The translations under genes were made by a program, and so were the position numbers. From positions 1 through 37,623 of the IMG/VR virus record IMGVR_UViG_2645727529_000001: 37,623 nt of DNA; one strand, 5' to 3'. The notes beneath the pieces were generated by a model. It ran no database searches, was not told where the DNA came from, and was given only the letters and a program-made list of their open reading frames with translations. This DNA comes from a virus. Its lineage: Duplodnaviria; Heunggongvirae; Uroviricota; Caudoviricetes. Shown piece by piece: positions 1 to 22,119 of this stretch (position 1 is the first letter of the stretch; each line of letters opens with the position of its first letter).

Positions 1-1053
1 TTACGGGGTAATGCCAACCGCTGCCGCCACTTTGTCGCCACTTGGCAGCGTTGCCAGAGGATTGAAACGGAGCGCCGTTTCCAGATGATCCGGTGCCAGA
101 TGTGCGTAACGCATAGTCATTTTTATATCGTGGTGTCCGAGAATTTTTTGTAAGGCCAGAATGTTTCCACCCGACATCATGAAGTGCGCCGCAAACGTAT
201 GGCGCAGAACGTGTGTGAGTTGACCGCGAGGGAGCACGATAGACGTTTTTTCCATCACGGATAAAAATTGAAAATAGCAGTCTGTGAAGAAATTGAACCC
301 ATCAAGCGCCATGATCTCTTCGTAAAGCTCTTTACTGATAGGGATGCTTCTGTTTTTCTTCCCCTTCGTTCTTACAAAGGTAATTCGGTATTTGGTCACC
401 TGTGAACGAGTAAGATTTACGGCTTCTCGCCAGCGTGCGCCTGTGCTTAAGCATATCTTAACTACCAGTGCCAGAATTGGGTCCTGACGTTTGCAATCAG
501 CCAGTAATTCAACAATCTGCTCATGGGTAAGCCATGCCATCTCTTTTTCTGCGATGGTGAATTTTCGCATGTTCTCCAGTGGGTTCGGATACGACCATTC
601 GCCCAGGCGGGATAGTTCGCTAAAAACACTACTTAGATAGCTTTGCTCCAGGTTAATGGTGACCGGGCTTGCTCCTTTCTTCCATTTCTCGCTGAAGTAG
701 ATCTCACCTGTCAGGCGTTTATCTCGATAGTGGGCAAACATTTTAGAGGTTAGATCAGTTGCAAGGGGATTGCCCAGAGCGTCAACCATCAGCAGCAATT
801 TGTCATAGACATGCTGCCCAGCAGTCAGTGATTTACCATGTAGTTTGAACCATAGCTCAACCACGTCTTTCAGTGTTCGACGATCCACTGATTCACCTAG
901 CCAGGGCTTTGCTTCGGTTTCTTCCATCGTGTGACGCTCAAAAGCCAGTGCTTCGCCTTTGGTGGCGAATTGTTTACGCACACGACGCCCACTACGTCCG
1001 GCGGGGTAACATTCGCAAAGCCATTTTCCTGTGGTTAGTTTTCGTACAGCCAT
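1..1053 (-). CDS. int: Tyrosine integrase, P2/186 type
   Basis: ORF 1..1131; ATG at 1053 (MAVRKL...) preceded by GGAGGG RBS; stop TAA at 1-3; C-terminal ...HxxR...Y-containing catalytic region typical of phage integrases. Confidence 0.9.
   Translation of the reverse strand: MAVRKLTTGKWLCECYPAGRSGRRVRKQFATKGEALAFERHTMEETEAKPWLGESVDRRTLKDVVELWFKLHGKSLTAGQHVYDKLLLMVDALGNPLATDLTSKMFAHYRDKRLTGEIYFSEKWKKGASPVTINLEQSYLSSVFSELSRLGEWSYPNPLENMRKFTIAEKEMAWLTHEQIVELLADCKRQDPILALVVKICLSTGARWREAVNLTRSQVTKYRITFVRTKGKKNRSIPISKELYEEIMALDGFNFFTDCYFQFLSVMEKTSIVLPRGQLTHVLRHTFAAHFMMSGGNILALQKILGHHDIKMTMRYAHLAPDHLETALRFNPLATLPSGDKVAAAVGITP
19..40. repeat. att core copy (attL side), inside the 3' end of int
   Basis: cgctgccgccactttgtcgcca matches 34769-34790 at 21 of 22 positions. 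Confidence 0.6.
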
Positions 1054-1241
1054 AAAAAATGCCCTCCAATAGAGAGCATTTTTACTGTATGTATAACCAG
1101 TGTCAATGTATGAAATCCTGCGACCATACATCTCACTGAAGCCATAATGAAGTAGGCTATTCTTTTTGCTATGTGATCATGTAACTTTTGCGGTTAACCT
1201 GTGGCTCATTTTTATTTTAGGCGCAGATATAAAAGCAAAAG

Positions 1242-1433
1242 TTATCGTGAGTTTTTAGTACAGATTTTTTTGGATTTACTAATAGTTCCATCATTGCAAA
1301 CGAATTTGCCATCAGAGGTACAGTGAGAAACACCTCCCTTTTTCCCTGAGCAGGGATAATTTCTAGCATAGGTAGCTAGTGGGTTTAATAACAAAGAACA
1401 TGACAAAACCACAAAAAATACCTTACCAAGCAT
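1242..1433 (-). CDS. Small secreted cysteine-rich, lysine-rich protein (63 aa), function unknown; moron candidate in the immunity operon
   Basis: Strong RBS GGGAGG 5 nt upstream of ATG; N-terminal hydrophobic signal-like segment ([23 protein letters not shown]) then about 40 residues with 4 Cys and many Lys; lies between cI and int on the same strand. Confidence 0.55.
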
Positions 1434-1448
1434 AATTTCCTCCCGGTA

Positions 1449-2018
1449 CTATTTAACATACTTGACTGTTAAACTTATAATTTTACCAATTATTTCAATG
1501 TCTTCTATCTTACATTCAAAGGCTCTGTTTCCACCCTCGACGAAGATTCTTCCACCGGGTAAACGAGTAATGTCACGGATCGTTATTTCGCCATCAATAC
1601 TTATTACCCATTTACCATCACGTATATCATCAAATTCCTTATCACAAATAAATTCAGAATTATTATCTGTGATTACAAAAAGATTCTTGAATGCCGACGG
1701 TAGAAATTCTCTATCGAAAATATAAAAACCGTCTTCACACAAGGCCCCATCAGATAATACATATTTAGCAACTTCCATAGTATTTGTATTACCTGAAGTT
1801 TGCTTTGAACCATGCCCGGTTGTGAGCCAATTAAGCGAGGTGCCTGTTTCAAGGGCGCACTGGATTACCCATTCTGCTGGGAATGAGTCACGCATGTAGC
1901 GTGTGGCGAGTGTACTTTTAGAGATTCCTAAATGATCGCACAACGCCTGTCGAGTCTTGAATCCATAAGCTTCTACCATGCGCTCTATGGCGCCTCGTCC
2001 GCCTTTCTCCAAATTCAT
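1449..2018 (-). CDS. cI: CI-type immunity repressor (186-like)
   Basis: ORF 1449..2024 (GTG at 2024); ATG at 2018 with GGAG RBS; N-terminal HTH-like segment (RQALCDHLGISKSTLATRY); position divergent from the early lytic operon. Confidence 0.8.
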   Translation of the reverse strand: MNLEKGGRGAIERMVEAYGFKTRQALCDHLGISKSTLATRYMRDSFPAEWVIQCALETGTSLNWLTTGHGSKQTSGNTNTMEVAKYVLSDGALCEDGFYIFDREFLPSAFKNLFVITDNNSEFICDKEFDDIRDGKWVISIDGEITIRDITRLPGGRIFVEGGNRAFECKIEDIEIIGKIISLTVKYVK

Positions 2019-7837: not shown

Positions 7838-8127
7838 TAGTTTGGGCAATGAGTGAAATAAGGCGTAAGGCGTAAGGTGGGGGGGCATTTTGATAAATGA
7901 TCGTCCGCTTTGTGCCAGAAGCGAACGTTTCTTCTGCTATCTTTCGTCAATTAACGAATGGCAGACTAATTTGCAACGGATAATCTGAATTTTGTAAGAT
8001 TATGGGTATTCCTATAATATTTACCAATAATAACCTTACAATGTACACTACCTATTGAATTTTCCATAGTTGGCCTTTGGCTCTACTTACCATCTATGTT
8101 TATGTATTTTATCAAAATGGACTAAAA

Positions 8128-10020
8128 ATGCACAATACGTACATCAAAGACTATATAGAATATTACCTTAGCCTTAAAACTGAACCTCAATACGCCATTA
8201 TGCTTAAAGGTGCTTGGGGATCAGGTAAAACTTGGTTCATTGAACGAGTTCTTGAAGAATATAAGCAAAAGCATTCAGAGTTCAAATTTCTTAAAGTGAG
8301 TTTGTATGGCGTCAACTCTATTGAGCAGATTGAAGATGAGTTCTATCGTCAACTTCATCCTATTCTATCAAACAAAGCCCTTATCTTTGGTGCAAATGTA
8401 CTAAAAAATACGCTTAAGGCTACTTTCAAGATCGATTTCAATGGCGATAATAAGTCTGACGTAGATGTCAATGCCAGTGTCCCCACCATTAATCTTAGCG
8501 ACTTTAGCAGAGAACCAGATGGTTTTGTGCTGGTCTTTGATGATATCGAGAGAGCTGGTATAGATTTACCAATCTTATTTGGATATATAAATCACTTTGT
8601 AGAAGTAAACGGATACAAAGCGATCCTGGTTGCCAATGAAGAAGAAATAATCAACAGAGAAAAGCGAATAAATAATGATGATGAGAAATCTAGCAGTGAA
8701 TACATAAGAACAAAAGAAAAGCTTGTAGGTAAAACATTTGAAGTAACGTCAGATTTACCTAGTGCTTGTAATGTTTTCTTGGGCGTAATTAGTAGTTTAC
8801 ACGTTGCTAATATATTTAAAGAAGATATGCAGACCATAGAACACCTCTATGTGTCGGCGAAATATAATAATCTAAGACATTTGAGGCAGTTCTTTCTTGA
8901 TGTACAACGCATCATTTCCCTTTTGGGAGATAAATATGTCAGCAACGACGATTTTATGAAAGTATTTTTCCAGCAGTTATTAATTTTCTCGATGGAGTAC
9001 CGGGGAGGGAACCTTAACTACGAGGATTTCAATTCAATCGGCAATGTAAATTATAGTATGTTTTTAGATAAAGGGCGTACCAAAACTAAGTATGACATGA
9101 TCGTCGAGAAATATTCATCACCTGTATTAACCGAGACGTTACTGGATGGTGCGTACTGGAGAGAGCTAATCTGTGATGGAAAGGTAACGCATGATCTTCT
9201 CGCTCAGCTGGATATTACGCGATTTTTTAGAAGCACCGATGCCCAAGCATGGGAGTATTTGTGGAACTATCGAGAACTTAATGAAACTATGCTTAATGAA
9301 CAGTACGCCATTGCCAAGGATAATCTATTTTCAGGTAAGATCACTTCCTTAGGTGAACTCCTGATGACCGCGAGTATTTTGCTGGCATTGGCGAAAGAAG
9401 GTTTAACCACAGATGCTGTTGATGACATTATAAATGAGACAAAACATCATATAGATATTTATTACAATGGATTAGGACCTGAAGATATACATCAGGAGTA
9501 TGCGCAAAGACATTATAATGAGTTAATGGCATGGCGTGGCTTTGGTTTTCTTGACAGGGATAGCGATGAATTCAAACTCATTATTGAGCATATTAAGATA
9601 GCGCAGAAGAAACGGTTTGATGAATCAATTCCGGAGTTTGCATTGAAGTTCAGCGATGAGTTGCAAAGAGGGAATTTATCGTTTGTATCTGAATTGTGTC
9701 ATTCTAATAATAGGCAGCTAAATCTTCATAACGTGCCTTTTTTACACTTGGTTTCTCCTGAAGTTTTCATTGAAAGCTATAGGAAACTTGACCCAATCAT
9801 CATGAGGAAACTGGCATTTAGCTTGAGGGATCGTTATTCTGATAGGGATGCCAGAACCAGACTGACCGAAGAATACAACTGGTTGATTAGCCTAAAAGAG
9901 ATAGCTGTAGATTTCACTCAAAACGCAGCCAATAACTCCTTTCAGGTTTTTCATGTAAAGTTTTTTATTGACTATGCACTAACTAATGCAATCAAATTAT
10001 TTACTGAGGGAACTGATTAA
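8128..10020 (+). CDS. KAP-family P-loop NTPase (630 aa), cargo gene at the tin/old-equivalent hotspot
   Basis: Walker A GAWGSGKT near the N-terminus, Walker B-like VLVFDDIERAG; strongly AT-rich versus backbone; single gene with its own terminator. Confidence 0.75.
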   Translation: MHNTYIKDYIEYYLSLKTEPQYAIMLKGAWGSGKTWFIERVLEEYKQKHSEFKFLKVSLYGVNSIEQIEDEFYRQLHPILSNKALIFGANVLKNTLKATFKIDFNGDNKSDVDVNASVPTINLSDFSREPDGFVLVFDDIERAGIDLPILFGYINHFVEVNGYKAILVANEEEIINREKRINNDDEKSSSEYIRTKEKLVGKTFEVTSDLPSACNVFLGVISSLHVANIFKEDMQTIEHLYVSAKYNNLRHLRQFFLDVQRIISLLGDKYVSNDDFMKVFFQQLLIFSMEYRGGNLNYEDFNSIGNVNYSMFLDKGRTKTKYDMIVEKYSSPVLTETLLDGAYWRELICDGKVTHDLLAQLDITRFFRSTDAQAWEYLWNYRELNETMLNEQYAIAKDNLFSGKITSLGELLMTASILLALAKEGLTTDAVDDIINETKHHIDIYYNGLGPEDIHQEYAQRHYNELMAWRGFGFLDRDSDEFKLIIEHIKIAQKKRFDESIPEFALKFSDELQRGNLSFVSELCHSNNRQLNLHNVPFLHLVSPEVFIESYRKLDPIIMRKLAFSLRDRYSDRDARTRLTEEYNWLISLKEIAVDFTQNAANNSFQVFHVKFFIDYALTNAIKLFTEGTD

Positions 10021-19680: not shown

Positions 19681-21432
19681 CTATTGGTTGAATATAAAGC
19701 TGATAATATTTTCAGGAGTGAGCTCTATGTTTTTTTTATTAAGTTTTTGAATGTACATTTTATATTTCATTTCAACGTTTCGGAAGCCTTGCGCAACAGA
19801 AAGTATTTCTACAGGATGAGATGAAAGCTTTATTAAGGAGTTAATGACTGCATCTAGGTAGATGTGAGCATGTTCAACTAAAACATTTGTTTTTGATGGG
19901 GTTTTTCCAGTGTGAACTATCAAGTTTCTAGTTCTATATATTCTCCTAATTTGCCAGTTGATTCTTTCTGCATGATTTTTAAGTGCCTGATACATAGTAT
20001 CAGTTGAGGAAATTAAATTGCTAATATATTCAAATCTCTCTTTCAATAACGGAAATTGTGATAGTTCTATCTTAAACTGATTGATGCTAGGGGCATGTTC
20101 TTGCGAAGCAACAAGAATTACAAATGATTTGGCTGCATCGCTATCTCCAATTAGTCTTAGAAGTGACATGGTTCGAGGATGATTCCATCGTTGTAAGTCT
20201 TTTATAAGATTCCTTACTAGGTCTTCAATATAATTCAGGTTTAAAAATGGTGTTAATGAATTAACGATATGTTCTATCGTGGATTGTTCTTCTTTTTTTG
20301 ATTCGTCGGGGATGAGTGATTCAATAGCAATCCATAAATTTAAAAGCTGATTTTCTACAGCATTTGTCTGTAGTGCCATTGAATGTAATTGTACACTTCT
20401 TATGAATTTATTGAAAGAATCCTTGCGCATTCTGAAATTATTCATGAATTGTTCGAGTCTTCTGCTTGCGTGTTCCTGAACCAGATCCTTGCAGCGGTGC
20501 ATTGGGTTTATGCTGCTTCTTATATTGATTTTTTCACCATTTTCACTAACTACAATGTTCTCTGCAGACCATGATGCTTCTTGCTTATGATGATAGAGAG
20601 AAAGCAAAGTTGATGCGAGCTTTAAGTTTCTTTCAGCTACCCTTCTAGCCGTGAATGGATCAAGTGCTTTAACATGCTTAACTAAAATAGTTCGTTGTTC
20701 ATGATTATCGAAGAAATCTGTTTCATTAATATTTTCGGGGGTTTCAAGAACAACCTCAATTTCTAATTGTGATAAGCATGGAGTAATATAACTAAAAGAT
20801 TTTTCAGCATTGAAATAAACTGAATATTCTTGTGTCTCTGAGGGGATGTTCTCTAGGAATGTAATAATCTCTTCATTTGAACTGATCTCTCGTTCTCTTT
20901 GGAAGAAATGTTTTTTTAGACTTTCCATCAAATATTCTTGACTTAATCCTTTTGATATTAGATGGGTAATCAACAGTCTTGTAAACTTTCGAATTTTATT
21001 TGGGTTGTATTCTGAAGTTATTGTAGAGCAAAGTTCACTGATGAGTTTGCTTTCATAATTACCAACATTAAGTTGAACTCTCAGTAACTCAAGAGTTATT
21101 TTTAGATTTTTATTTCCTAACTGATTGTTTTGGAGTTGATCTAAAAATGAACCTAAAGGGTTTTTTAGAAGACTGATTGCGATGTCATCATTCTTAATAT
21201 TTTTAGTTAATTCGTCAATGACGTGGGATATATGTGCGGGGCTTATGTTGCCTTTTTCTATATCATCGATTGTTGATATTGCTTCTATACATAAACTTGG
21301 AGTGTTCATTATAGAAGGTTTATATGTACTATGGGTGTAATCAAAGAGAAGTTCCTCCATTAACTCGGTGAAATAAATAAGCGCAGTGCATTGTTCAATA
21401 TGATTCCAGTTGTGTAGTCTTCTAAATTTCAT
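19681..21432 (-). CDS. Large AT-rich cargo protein with C-terminal HEPN-like Rx4H motif; candidate abortive-infection or defence RNase
   Basis: ORF 19681..21552 (TTG start); preferred ATG at 21432 (MKFRRL...) leaves the P_V promoter region free; motif RIYRTRNLIVHTG near the C-terminus; convergent with S and divergent from V at the P2 orf30 position. Confidence 0.6.
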   Translation of the reverse strand: MKFRRLHNWNHIEQCTALIYFTELMEELLFDYTHSTYKPSIMNTPSLCIEAISTIDDIEKGNISPAHISHVIDELTKNIKNDDIAISLLKNPLGSFLDQLQNNQLGNKNLKITLELLRVQLNVGNYESKLISELCSTITSEYNPNKIRKFTRLLITHLISKGLSQEYLMESLKKHFFQREREISSNEEIITFLENIPSETQEYSVYFNAEKSFSYITPCLSQLEIEVVLETPENINETDFFDNHEQRTILVKHVKALDPFTARRVAERNLKLASTLLSLYHHKQEASWSAENIVVSENGEKINIRSSINPMHRCKDLVQEHASRRLEQFMNNFRMRKDSFNKFIRSVQLHSMALQTNAVENQLLNLWIAIESLIPDESKKEEQSTIEHIVNSLTPFLNLNYIEDLVRNLIKDLQRWNHPRTMSLLRLIGDSDAAKSFVILVASQEHAPSINQFKIELSQFPLLKERFEYISNLISSTDTMYQALKNHAERINWQIRRIYRTRNLIVHTGKTPSKTNVLVEHAHIYLDAVINSLIKLSSHPVEILSVAQGFRNVEMKYKMYIQKLNKKNIELTPENIISFIFNQ

Positions 21433-21476
21433 ATTAATACCTTGTTTTGTGAAGCTTGAATTTACCTTTAGCGCAT

Positions 21477-21498
21477 TGTTTGTTGCTTCATACAAACA
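21477..21498. promoter_or_regulatory. Ogr/Delta-type late-promoter site(s) for P_V (two overlapping TGT-N12-ACA dyads)
   Basis: TGT 21477-21479 with ACA 21492-21494, and TGT 21481-21483 with ACA 21496-21498; 43-64 nt upstream of the V start. Confidence 0.55.
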
Positions 21499-21540
21499 TG
21501 GTTTGTTTGTGATCTCAAGTGTTTGATTAAGAATTTGAGA

Positions 21541-22119
21541 ATGAACGTACAACTCACGGAAATCATGCGCCTTATCACCAATCTGATCCGCACAGGGGTA
21601 GTCACCGAAGTGGACCGGGAAAACTGGCTTTGCAGGGTGAAAACGGGCGAGCTTGAAACCAACTGGATCAGCTGGCTGACGCTACGTGCCGGAAATGCCC
21701 GGACATGGTGGCGACCATCGGAAGGTGAGCAGGTGGTGCTGCTGAGTCTGGGAGGCAATCTGGAAACCGCCTTTGCGTTGCCCGCTGTCTATTCGAATCA
21801 GTTCGCGCCACCTTCGACGTCGGCGGACGCCTGCGTGACAGAACATCCTGACGGTGGCTGGTTTGAATACGAACCCGCCACCGGGCGCTGGTATGTCAGG
21901 GGCATCAAATCCATGGTCATTGAGGCTGCCGACAACATCACCCTGAAAACCAGTGAGTTTGTGCTGGAGGCTGACCGCACGCGTATTAACAGCGAAGTAG
22001 TGATCAATGGTGGTGTTACCCAGGGCGGCGGTGCAATGAGTTCTAACGGAATTGTGGTTGATGCACATCAGCATACTGGCGTCCTGAAAGGCGGCGACAC
22101 AACCGGAGGCCCGGTATGA
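21541..22119 (+). CDS. V: Baseplate spike protein gpV
   Basis: ATG 21541; P2 V-like. Confidence 0.85.
   Translation: MNVQLTEIMRLITNLIRTGVVTEVDRENWLCRVKTGELETNWISWLTLRAGNARTWWRPSEGEQVVLLSLGGNLETAFALPAVYSNQFAPPSTSADACVTEHPDGGWFEYEPATGRWYVRGIKSMVIEAADNITLKTSEFVLEADRTRINSEVVINGGVTQGGGAMSSNGIVVDAHQHTGVLKGGDTTGGPV

What the first reader, a model, noticed from the sequence alone, without database searches (positions are those of the whole stretch)
1242..1433. Small secreted Cys/Lys-rich peptide gene inside the lysogenic (cI-int) transcription unit
A 63-aa ORF with a near-ideal RBS (GGGAGG, 5-nt spacer), an N-terminal signal-like hydrophobic segment and a cationic mature part of about 40 residues with four cysteines lies directly downstream of cI on the same strand, before int. 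It would be co-expressed with the repressor in the lysogen, which is typical for lysogenic-conversion morons (exported toxin-like, antimicrobial or surface-modulating peptides).
Basis: partly seen in the sequence, partly recalled or inferred. Interest (0 to 1): 0.45.

Follow-up and report, generated by a model that had tools for sequence, protein, structure and literature searches.

The report
Prophage-borne YdcA-family periplasmic mini-protein
The 63-codon ORF between the repressor and integrase genes of this P2/186-like E. coli prophage is a real, strongly conserved gene for an exported four-cysteine mini-protein of the already catalogued YdcA family, whose function is unknown, so it is a genuine prophage cargo gene but not a new kind of element.

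Summary
ORF 1242-1433 (-) has a GGGAGG RBS 5 nt before its ATG and starts 15 nt after the cI stop. It encodes a signal-peptide-like N-terminus and a 40-residue mature part with 4 Cys and net charge about +7.

It is not novel. The protein is RefSeq WP_001513672.1, "YdcA family protein" (NF007463 above cutoff, PF27300, phrog_6000). A chromosomal paralog, ydcA, is present in 5416 of 5426 complete E. coli genomes.

It is a real gene. A 92.5% E. coli allele differs by 11 synonymous and 2 nonsynonymous changes. Across genera the mature domain is nearly invariant while the signal peptide drifts.

It is cargo. In phage 186, SopEPhi and SEN8, cI and int abut. A sibling prophage with the same integrase carries the PD-Lambda-1 defence gene in this slot.

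Homologs follow prophage repressors of two unrelated families in 17 of 80 species loci, including an unannotated copy in Haemophilus HP2.

The domain is fused to, or adjacent to, secreted nucleases. It probably matches one lobe of Legionella Dis2, a Dot/Icm outer-membrane cap subunit.

Function is unproven. My best guess is a lysogen-expressed periplasmic binding module that interferes with incoming DNA. Interest is modest.

The parts
1242..1433 (-). YdcA-family gene (63 codons plus stop); identical to RefSeq WP_001513672.1
   Evidence: ORF list. NF007463 at 114.6 bits against a cutoff of 93. phrog_6000. PGAP annotation 'YdcA family protein'. Purifying selection.
1365..1433 (-). Predicted Sec signal peptide, residues 1-23 (MLGK / [12 protein letters not shown] / NPLATYA), with cleavage predicted after A23
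   Evidence: Rule-based calculation. This region varies in sequence but stays hydrophobic with an AxA-like end across homologs. C12 is not a lipobox cysteine: it is not conserved and K4 violates the pattern.
1245..1364 (-). Mature 40-aa domain [40 protein letters not shown], with four invariant Cys and the family motif PCSGxKGG...C...FxCxDGxxSxSKxxC
   Evidence: Alignments A1, A2 and A4. AF2 domain model with pLDDT 80.3 and a beta-hairpin. pN 0.07-0.21 while pS is saturated.
1439..1444 (-). Shine-Dalgarno GGGAGG, 5 nt upstream of the ATG
   Evidence: Read directly from the sequence.
1449..2018 (-). cI repressor of the 186 type, first gene of the lysogenic operon; its stop codon lies 15 nt before the ORF start
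   Evidence: PF07022 and PF16452. PGAP 'phage repressor protein CI'. 186 operon annotation used as the model.
1..1053 (-). Tyrosine integrase, the downstream gene on the same strand
   Evidence: PF24624 and PF00589. PGAP annotation. 97-98% identical, up to about position 1113, to the int of Klebsiella and E. coli P2-like phages that carry other cargo.
1054..1083 (-). Hairpin AAAAAUGCUCUCU-AUU-GGAGGGCAUUUUU followed by a U-run, ending at the int ATG. Its 3' arm is the int Shine-Dalgarno. It looks like a terminator or attenuator that could let cI and the ORF be expressed while limiting int.
   Evidence: RNA fold of 1050-1250(-): MFE -56.7 kcal/mol, z = -4.86 against shuffles. The function is inferred only.
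1183..1243 (-). Long hairpin immediately after the ORF stop (arms AACUUUUGC / GCAAAAGUU); no U-run follows it
   Evidence: Same fold. Role unknown.

Best explanation
The ORF is a genuine accessory (cargo) gene of a 186-like P2-family prophage integrated next to rcdA. It encodes a YdcA/PF27300-family protein.

Proposed mechanism:
- A Sec signal peptide is removed on export.
- This leaves a roughly 4.3-kDa, 40-residue periplasmic mini-protein: one beta-hairpin domain, probably held by two disulfide bonds.
- The gene lies 15 nt behind cI with no detectable terminator between them. It should therefore be made from the lysogenic pL/pE transcript whenever the repressor is made.
- In the periplasm it acts as a small binding or adaptor module at the envelope.
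- The most likely benefit to the prophage is interference with DNA entering the cell (superinfection or entry exclusion), possibly together with periplasmic nucleases.

Shown here:
- The gene is real and belongs to the YdcA family.
- It is under strong purifying selection.
- Its position and the variability of the cI-int slot.
- Its recurrent linkage to prophage repressors and to secreted nucleases.

Inferred: export, disulfide bonds, co-transcription with cI, and the exclusion function.

My confidence is about 0.9 for the identity and cargo status and about 0.3 for the exclusion mechanism.
For: Identity
- NF007463 above its curated cutoff, phrog_6000 and precomputed PF27300.
- RefSeq names it 'YdcA family protein'.

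Real gene
- 11 synonymous and 2 nonsynonymous differences against a 92.5% E. coli allele.
- 4 synonymous and 1 nonsynonymous variants among 82 near-identical copies.
- Across genera the mature domain has pN 0.07-0.21 and the signal peptide 0.45-0.70, with pS saturated.

Export
- The window protein has n-, h- and c-region features, as do 109 of 124 family representatives.
- The chromosomal paralog is annotated as a periplasmic protein.

Cargo status
- cI and int abut in 186, SopEPhi and SEN8.
- The slot holds a 349-aa gene in phage 4LV2017 and PD-Lambda-1 (E 3e-120) in vB_EcoM-813R9, which has the same integrase.
- 598 E. coli genomes carry this cargo module against 1135 with this integrase type.
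- GC falls to 0.34-0.36 here against 0.45-0.50 in int.
- The integrase-to-primase interval is a reported minor defence hotspot of P2-like phages (PMC13586616).

Lysogeny linkage
- Homologs sit downstream of a 186-type cI on the same strand in 9 species loci.
- They sit downstream of an S24/HTH repressor in 8 more, out of 80 loci.
- An unannotated homolog sits directly after cI in Haemophilus phage HP2.

DNA-related lead
- The domain is fused to SNase (twice), PLDc_2 and Endonuclease_NS.
- It is adjacent to SNase genes in 7 of 80 species loci.
- It occurs in phages, in MOBQ plasmids beside mob genes, and probably in a T4SS cap subunit.
- From established knowledge: exclusion genes classically sit next to repressors (rex, sieB) or in tail modules (cor, llp). 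Those are the two placements seen for this family.
Against: - No experiment links any YdcA-family protein to phage or DNA exclusion.
- PADLOC has no model that matches it.
- E. coli already has a core chromosomal ydcA (5416 of 5426 genomes). A housekeeping envelope role is therefore equally conceivable.
- The domain's net charge is not conserved (-2 to +8, mean +3.3; the nuclease-fused copies are +1, -2 and +4). This weakens simple electrostatic DNA binding.
- Most family members are stand-alone proteins: all of the top 120 hits.
- Many species loci are ordinary chromosomal contexts such as cybB-ydcA-trg, trmD/DUF2946/PepSY_TM and prc/htpX.
- Dis2 contacts the lipoproteins DotC, DotD and DotK, not DNA or the channel, and is dispensable (PMC12716638).
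- No transcript data were available, and signal-peptide prediction was rule-based only.
Confidence: 0.5

Rival explanations
1. It is a host-fitness (lysogenic conversion) factor. The prophage supplies a second, constitutively expressed copy of a periplasmic envelope or stress protein. This copy does what chromosomal YdcA does, for example supporting tolerance to acid or organic acids, and benefits the lysogen rather than blocking other elements.
For: - Chromosomal ydcA is core in E. coli.
- Its deletion made E. coli W sensitive to 300 mM 3-hydroxypropionate. The same paper cites acid-induced, YdcI-dependent expression (PMC7642389).
- Many family members sit in ordinary chromosomal loci.
Against: - The phenotype comes from a single study and the authors call the involvement unclear.
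- This reading does not explain the recurrent placement behind prophage repressors, in tail modules and on MOBQ plasmids.
- It does not explain the nuclease fusions and nuclease neighbours.
Confidence: 0.22
2. It is a Dis2-like adaptor. The mini-protein docks onto outer-membrane lipoprotein or OmpA-like complexes, as Dis2 docks on DotC, DotD and DotK. This would remodel or mask an envelope complex such as a phage receptor or a secretion or conjugation machine, without touching DNA.
For: - Dis2 (7muc/7mud chain AN) is the top PDB hit in every search. The profile with signal peptide gives E 5e-5. Foldseek ranks it first at probability 0.97 with the full model and 0.82 with the domain model. hhalign gives 83.6%.
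- A Dis2-like protein carries PF27300.
- Dis2 lies next to the outer membrane, is held by disulfide bonds, and contacts DotK, DotC and DotD (PMC8486379; PMC12716638).
Against: - Domain-only sequence E-values are only 0.03-0.11, and LDL-A repeats score similarly.
- No partner is known in E. coli.
- Dis2 has two lobes and five disulfide bonds; this protein has one domain and four Cys.
Confidence: 0.12
3. It is a periplasmic metal- or redox-binding mini-protein in which the Cys, His and Asp residues act as ligands rather than forming disulfide bonds.
For: - There are four invariant Cys, a nearly invariant His and an invariant Asp.
- In Atlantibacter and Citrobacter the gene precedes DUF2946 and PepSY_TM genes.
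Against: - That neighbourhood is confined to one lineage.
- The His is not invariant in the broader alignment.
- The probable homolog Dis2 shows disulfide bonds in cryo-EM density.
- Thiols in the periplasm of DsbA-positive bacteria are normally oxidised (established knowledge).
Confidence: 0.07
4. It is a secreted antimicrobial or toxin-like peptide.
For: The mature part is small, cationic (+6.8) and has four cysteines.
Against: - There is no immunity, processing or dedicated export gene; the neighbours are cI and int.
- The leader is Sec-type, which delivers to the periplasm of a Gram-negative cell, and is not a double-glycine leader.
- The sequence is near-invariant across proteobacteria and is a core chromosomal gene in E. 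coli. This is unlike bacteriocins.
- Cationic charge is not conserved in the family.
Confidence: 0.05
5. It is a chance ORF in an AT-rich spacer and not a gene.
For: ORFs of this size are common by chance, and the region is AT-rich.
Against: - The HMM score is above the curated cutoff.
- Homologs occur across gamma-, beta- and alpha-proteobacteria with an invariant Cys framework.
- pN/pS is about 0.05.
- There is a strong RBS.
Confidence: 0.01

Closest known systems
E. coli K-12 YdcA (b1419; NCBIfam PRK10040 group; Pfam PF27300), a 57-aa protein annotated as periplasmic, of unknown function
   Same: - Same family by HMM.
- Same architecture: a signal peptide plus one domain of about 35 aa.
- Same four Cys and the PCSGxKGG / FVCNDGSxSxSKK motif.
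   Different: - The window protein matches the sister model NF007463. For the K-12-type model NF007462 it scores 68.5 bits against a cutoff of 118.
- It is about 57% identical to YdcA over the aligned part (locus L043).
- It is more basic.
- It is prophage-borne behind cI, not in the cybB-ydcA-trg chromosomal locus.
Dis2 (Lpg0823), outer-membrane-cap subunit of the Legionella Dot/Icm T4SS (PDB 7MUC/7MUD chain AN)
   Same: - It is the best PDB match by both sequence profile and fold.
- Shared motif: C-x-x-K-x-GG-[IV]-x-x-C ... G-x-x-V-C-N-[DN]-G-x-x-S.
- Both have a signal peptide.
- Dis2 is disulfide-rich and periplasmic, next to the outer membrane.
   Different: - Dis2 has two tandem lobes with five disulfide bonds and is part of a T4SS.
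- This protein is a single domain in a prophage with no T4SS.
- The homology is probable but below conventional significance once the signal peptide is removed.
Classical prophage morons and exclusion genes expressed in lysogens: lambda rexAB, bor and lom; P22 sieA/sieB; P1 sim (periplasmic); phi80/N15 cor; T5 llp
   Same: - It is an accessory gene next to the repressor, or in the tail module in Moraxella and Acinetobacter phages.
- Its product is exported.
- It is dispensable for the phage core and patchily distributed.
   Different: - There is no sequence similarity to any of them.
- No own promoter or terminator pair was found.
- No exclusion phenotype is known. The comparison rests on position and on established knowledge of those systems.
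PD-Lambda-1 and other defence cargo in P2-like hotspots
   Same: It occupies the same cI-int slot in a sibling prophage that has the same integrase and the same attachment site. The window also carries PDC-S49 and an ApeA-like gene in the two classical P2 hotspots.
   Different: PD-Lambda-1 is a 558-aa cytoplasmic ATPase-type protein. The YdcA-like protein is a 63-aa exported peptide with no PADLOC match.

Membership tests
YdcA family (NCBIfam NF007463 / PRK10040; Pfam PF27300; phrog_6000) | Whole-protein HMM score above the curated cutoff | tested here: met
   NF007463 scores 114.6 bits against a cutoff of 93, E 1.3e-33, over residues 5-63. phrog_6000 gives 3.1e-34. PF27300 is precomputed for the identical protein. 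The local Pfam copy lacks PF27300.
YdcA family (NCBIfam NF007463 / PRK10040; Pfam PF27300; phrog_6000) | Four-Cys framework and the motif PCSGxKGG...C...FxCxDGxxSxSKxxC | tested here: met
   All invariant columns of A1, A2 and A4 are present in the window protein.
YdcA family (NCBIfam NF007463 / PRK10040; Pfam PF27300; phrog_6000) | N-terminal Sec signal peptide directly followed by the domain | tested here: met
   A rule-based check found a basic n-region, a hydrophobic core (KD 2.73) and T-Y-A before the predicted cleavage site. 109 of 124 representatives show the same three features. No SignalP was available.
YdcA family (NCBIfam NF007463 / PRK10040; Pfam PF27300; phrog_6000) | Periplasmic location and disulfide-bonded mature protein | not testable with these tools
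   RefSeq calls the K-12-type paralog 'periplasmic protein'. No experiment was found.
Prophage moron / cargo gene of the 186-type lysogenic operon | Sits between core genes at a junction that is empty or differently filled in relatives | tested here: met
   cI and int abut in 186, SopEPhi and SEN8. Other genes fill the slot in 4LV2017 and vB_EcoM-813R9. The cargo is in 598 E. coli genomes, against 1135 that carry this integrase.
Prophage moron / cargo gene of the 186-type lysogenic operon | Own promoter and terminator flanking the gene (the strict moron definition) | tested here: not met
   No minus-strand promoter or terminator was found around the ORF. It lies 15 nt after cI, so read-through from pL/pE is the likely source of expression. 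A terminator-like hairpin occurs only just before int.
Prophage moron / cargo gene of the 186-type lysogenic operon | Expressed in the lysogen | not testable with these tools
   Inferred from the annotated 186 operon and the gene spacing.
Dis2 (Lpg0823) T4SS outer-membrane-cap subunit | Sequence and fold similarity to a Dis2 lobe | tested here: inconclusive
Dis2 (Lpg0823) T4SS outer-membrane-cap subunit | Two tandem lobes with five disulfide bonds, and association with a Dot/Icm T4SS | tested here: not met
   The window protein has a single domain and four Cys. The window is a P2-like prophage with no T4SS genes.
Known anti-phage defence or exclusion systems (PADLOC-DB) | Match to a defence-protein model | tested here: not met
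   No PADLOC hit for the ORF, while neighbouring cargo does hit models.
Cys-rich cationic bacteriocins / antimicrobial peptides | Adjacent immunity or dedicated export/processing genes and a non-Sec leader | tested here: not met
   The neighbours are cI and int only. The leader is Sec-type.

The most novel reading that the evidence does not exclude
The YdcA/PF27300 mini-domain could be a widespread periplasmic 'anti-entry' module carried by mobile elements. It is expressed from prophage immunity operons built on two unrelated repressor families, and it is placed in tail modules and on mobilizable plasmids. It is fused or adjacent to secreted nucleases of three different folds. It appears homologous to the lobes of Dis2, which the literature treats as Legionella-specific. 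On this reading it would define a new class of exported superinfection or DNA-entry exclusion factor, perhaps one that recruits periplasmic nucleases or docks on envelope complexes. It would also give a function to the core E. coli y-gene ydcA.
Probability: 0.15. Interest if true: 0.65.

Novelty: already known. Interest (0 to 1): 0.3.

Why it matters
The gene itself is already annotated in hundreds of genomes, so finding it is not news. Three aspects could still matter.

- YdcA is a core E. coli protein with no known function. Its prophage copy sits in the immunity operon, and its domain is linked to secreted nucleases. That gives a concrete and cheap hypothesis to test: periplasmic interference with incoming DNA.
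- Dis2 of the Legionella Dot/Icm machine is described as species-specific with no homologs. It probably consists of two YdcA-like domains, which would connect it to a broad proteobacterial family.
- The cI-int junction of 186-like prophages behaves as a third cargo slot. It can hold a validated defence gene (PD-Lambda-1), which is useful for hotspot-guided discovery.

Tried and rejected
- **Local Pfam-A:** no family found for the ORF; the only hit was a chance GULLO2 match at E 0.076. The family PF27300 exists only in the precomputed annotations.
- **PADLOC:** no hit.
- **Rfam on 900-2300:** only a chance miRNA hit at E 0.42, so no known RNA gene explains the region.
- **LDL-receptor class A repeats:** they score as well as Dis2 with the domain-only profile (E 0.015). 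I treat this as Cys-rich motif coincidence. They are absent from the top Foldseek ranks (best is rank 20 at probability 0.04) and align to only half the domain.
- **Lipoprotein reading (VLSC at residues 9-12):** rejected. C12 is not conserved and K4 breaks the lipobox rule.
- **The UniRef label 'Conjugal transfer protein':** no support was found beyond adjacency to mob genes on small Acinetobacter plasmids.
- **Name coincidences, not homologs:** 'ydcA' in the gonococcal genetic island (a position-based name; homology not examined), 'ydcA' mentioned in a ColV-Ia (pS88) plasmid paper that I did not read, and B. subtilis YdcA, a rhomboid-family protein.
- **Electrostatic DNA binding as the domain's general function:** weakened, because net charge ranges from -2 to +8 across the family.
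- **dS-based omega across genera:** could not be computed because synonymous sites are saturated. I used an intra-E. coli allele instead.

Full report
**1.

The minus strand carries a 63-codon ORF at 1242-1433. GGGAGG lies at 1444-1439, then a 5-nt spacer, then the ATG at 1433. The TAG of the upstream gene is at 1451-1449, so only 15 nt separate the two genes.

The upstream gene is a 186-type CI repressor (PF07022 2.8e-33, PF16452 2.7e-27). The downstream gene is a tyrosine integrase (PF24624, PF00589). Its annotated start is at 1053, which leaves a 188-nt spacer after the ORF. Apl/Cox-like, CII, Fil, replication and P2-type morphogenesis genes follow on the other strand.

The window is a P2/186-like prophage next to rcdA plus about 2.8 kb of host DNA at its far end.

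The product has a basic n-region (MLGK), a hydrophobic core (maximum Kyte-Doolittle 10-mer score 2.73) and NPLATYA before the predicted cleavage site. The mature part is 40 residues with four Cys, pI 9.7 and charge +6.8.

**2. It is a real gene of a known family**

- NCBIfam NF007463 (PRK10040.1-2) scores 114.6 bits against a curated cutoff of 93. phrog_6000 matches at 3e-34.
- The identical protein represents a 355-member cluster seen on at least 1000 contigs and carries PF27300 in precomputed annotation.
- RefSeq annotates it as WP_001513672.1, 'YdcA family protein'.
- An exhaustive profile search with the mature domain finds 334 representative clusters at E up to 1e-3 and 160 at E up to 1e-10.
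- The domain typically starts at residues 20-35, directly after a signal-peptide-like segment.
- The framework PCSGxKGG...C...FxCxDGxxSxSKxxC is invariant or nearly so.

Selection is strongly purifying.
- Against a 92.5%-identical E. coli allele there are 11 synonymous and 2 nonsynonymous differences (pS 0.257, pN 0.014).
- Among 82 near-identical copies there are 4 synonymous and 1 nonsynonymous variant sites.
- Against Yersinia, Haemophilus, Comamonas, Neisseria and other homologs, synonymous sites are saturated. The mature domain has pN 0.07-0.21 and the signal peptide 0.45-0.70.

A leader that drifts in sequence but stays hydrophobic, in front of a frozen mature domain, is the expected signature of an exported protein.

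**3. It is cargo in the lysogenic operon**

In phage 186 the annotated lysogenic operon is pL/pE, cI, int (abutting cI), orf69, terminator, attP. SopEPhi and SEN8 also have cI directly followed by int.

In this window the ORF and a structured spacer are inserted at that junction. Homology to int of Klebsiella and E. coli P2-like phages (97-98%) stops at about position 1113. Beyond that point those phages carry something else:
- a 349-aa gene in 4LV2017;
- a 558-aa protein in vB_EcoM-813R9, which sits at the same rcdA site and matches the defence system PD-Lambda-1 at E 3e-120.

The cargo module 1114-1448 is in 598 of 5426 complete E. coli genomes, while this integrase type is in 1135. GC drops to 0.34-0.36 across the ORF and the 3' half of cI, against 0.45-0.50 in int. 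A recent survey lists the integrase-to-primase interval as a minor defence hotspot of P2-like phages (PMC13586616).

No terminator-like site was found between cI and the ORF. Co-transcription with cI is the simplest reading, but it was not measured.

**4. The association with lysogeny modules recurs**

I scanned one genome per species and analysed 80 loci.
- Nine loci have a 186-type cI directly upstream on the same strand, usually with int downstream. They come from Escherichia, Buttiauxella, Yersinia, Haemophilus and Pasteurellaceae, with cI identity as low as 31-38%.
- Eight loci in betaproteobacteria and relatives have an S24/HTH_3 repressor one to three genes upstream on the same strand. 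Three of these have P2 gpD downstream.
- Haemophilus phages HP2 and S2 carry an unannotated homolog immediately after cI.

Elsewhere the gene occurs in several other contexts:
- the tail-gene region of Moraxella and Acinetobacter siphophages;
- small MOBQ Acinetobacter plasmids next to mob genes;
- ordinary chromosomal loci. One is the core E. coli ydcA locus between cybB and trg, present in 5416 of 5426 genomes and annotated 'periplasmic protein'.

**5. Functional leads**

*(a) Nucleases.* Among the longer family representatives the domain is fused, after the signal peptide, to SNase (twice), to a PLD/Nuc-type domain and to Endonuclease_NS. It is also fused to the PBCV basic adaptor domain and to VasL. 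In 7 of the 80 species loci an SNase gene lies on the same strand within a few hundred bases of it (79-596 nt). These loci represent about four independent lineages.

*(b) Structure.* AF2 gives a confident small beta-hairpin core (pLDDT 87-90 in the core). The only PDB entry that stands out is Dis2 (Lpg0823), the outer-membrane-proximal subunit of the Legionella Dot/Icm cap.
- hmmsearch gives E 5e-5 with the signal peptide included and 0.03-0.11 with the domain only.
- Foldseek ranks it first with both models, at probability 0.97 and 0.82 and 38% identity over 37-39 columns.
- hhalign gives 83.6%.
- A Dis2-like protein itself carries PF27300.

The papers describe Dis2 as two similar lobes pinned by five disulfide bonds. 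They report no structural neighbours and treat it as Legionella-specific. It contacts DotK, DotC and DotD and is dispensable (PMC8486379; PMC12716638). I rate the homology as probable but not established.

*(c) The E. coli paralog.* It is essentially uncharacterised. One study found a ydcA deletion sensitive to 3-hydroxypropionate and cites acid-induced expression (PMC7642389). Other mentions call the function unknown.

**6. Most likely mechanism**

- Shown: a selected, family-assigned small gene in a variable slot behind cI.
- Inferred with good support: Sec export, signal-peptide cleavage after A23, and a disulfide-stabilised periplasmic mini-protein produced together with the repressor.
- Inferred with weak support (about 0.3): it acts against incoming DNA, that is superinfection or entry exclusion, possibly cooperating with periplasmic nucleases or docking on an envelope complex.

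The exclusion idea rests on four points:
- the two classical placements of exclusion genes, next to the repressor and in the tail module;
- a defence gene in the same slot of a sibling prophage;
- the link to nucleases;
- the family's spread on phages and plasmids and its probable presence in a T4SS.

Against it:
- there is no experiment and no PADLOC model;
- a core chromosomal paralog exists;
- the domain charge is not conserved;
- most members are stand-alone proteins.

The rivals are a host-fitness envelope factor, a Dis2-like adaptor, metal binding, an antimicrobial peptide and a chance ORF. They are scored in the rival list.

**7. Verdict**

Novelty is 'already known'. Interest is modest (0.3), mainly because the analysis yields a testable lead for a core y-gene and a probable family assignment for Dis2.

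Noticed in passing
window 1054-1083 (- strand), with a promoter-like site at 1106-1078 (-): A hairpin AAAAAUGCUCUCU-AUU-GGAGGGCAUUUUU plus a U-run ends exactly at the int ATG, and its 3' arm is the int Shine-Dalgarno. It could terminate or attenuate the lysogenic transcript, or mask int translation. The 201-nt spacer folds far better than shuffles (z = -4.86). The consensus scan missed the hairpin, probably because the A-tract pairs with the U-run. A TTGACA-17-AAAAAT promoter-like site overlaps it. The segment up to about 1113 travels with int in phages that carry other cargo.
   Followed up: partly
window 1183-1243 (- strand): A long hairpin (arms AACUUUUGC / GCAAAAGUU) begins within the ORF stop codon (TAA, 1244-1242) and has no U-run after it. 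It might be an mRNA stabiliser or processing site, or a remnant of the cargo insertion.
   Followed up: no
window 1453-1481 (+ strand): A near-consensus sigma-70 match (TTAACA-17-TATAAT, 11 of 12 positions) points antisense into the 3' end of cI. It may be chance in AT-rich DNA, or an antisense promoter within the lysogenic operon.
   Followed up: no
window 8077-10020 (+): A 647-aa KAP-family P-loop NTPase matches the PADLOC candidate defence system PDC-S49 (E 5e-161). It lies in the gpA-to-portal hotspot, and the cargo here differs from that of an otherwise 96-98% identical prophage in NZ_OZ501623.
   Followed up: partly
window 19681-21552 (-): A 623-aa protein with no Pfam hit and a weak ApeA-like PADLOC match (2e-12) lies in the second P2 cargo hotspot, within the tail/baseplate genes. 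The reference prophage lacks it.
   Followed up: partly
L003 4636-6312 (Escherichia phage vB_EcoM-813R9, ON470620): The gene annotated 'chromosome segregation ATPase' between cI and int matches the defence system PD-Lambda-1 (E 3e-120). The cI-int junction of 186-like prophages therefore works as a third cargo or defence slot.
   Followed up: partly
L001 3001-3123 (Haemophilus phage HP2, AY027935 2489-2611; the same in S2): An unannotated YdcA-family gene lies directly after cI and before orf1(S) and int in the GenBank records of HP2 and S2.
   Followed up: yes
P0227, P0228; PDB 7MUC/7MUD chain AN: Dis2 (Lpg0823) of the Legionella Dot/Icm T4SS is described in the literature as Legionella-specific with no structural neighbours. 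It appears to consist of two tandem YdcA/PF27300-like domains.
   Followed up: partly
L044, L054, L071, L082 and proteins P0056-P0062: Betaproteobacterial prophage versions are 101-124 aa long. They carry a second C-terminal Cys-rich module (CxCxxxxxCxGPRGGxYC...SY) that matches the PBCV basic adaptor domain PF08789.
   Followed up: no
L049, L059, L061, L066, L078, L080, L081: SNase (staphylococcal nuclease) homologs lie on the same strand within 79-596 nt of the YdcA-like gene in alphaproteobacteria and a Methylococcales MAG. This parallels the SNase, PLD and Endonuclease_NS fusion proteins.
   Followed up: partly
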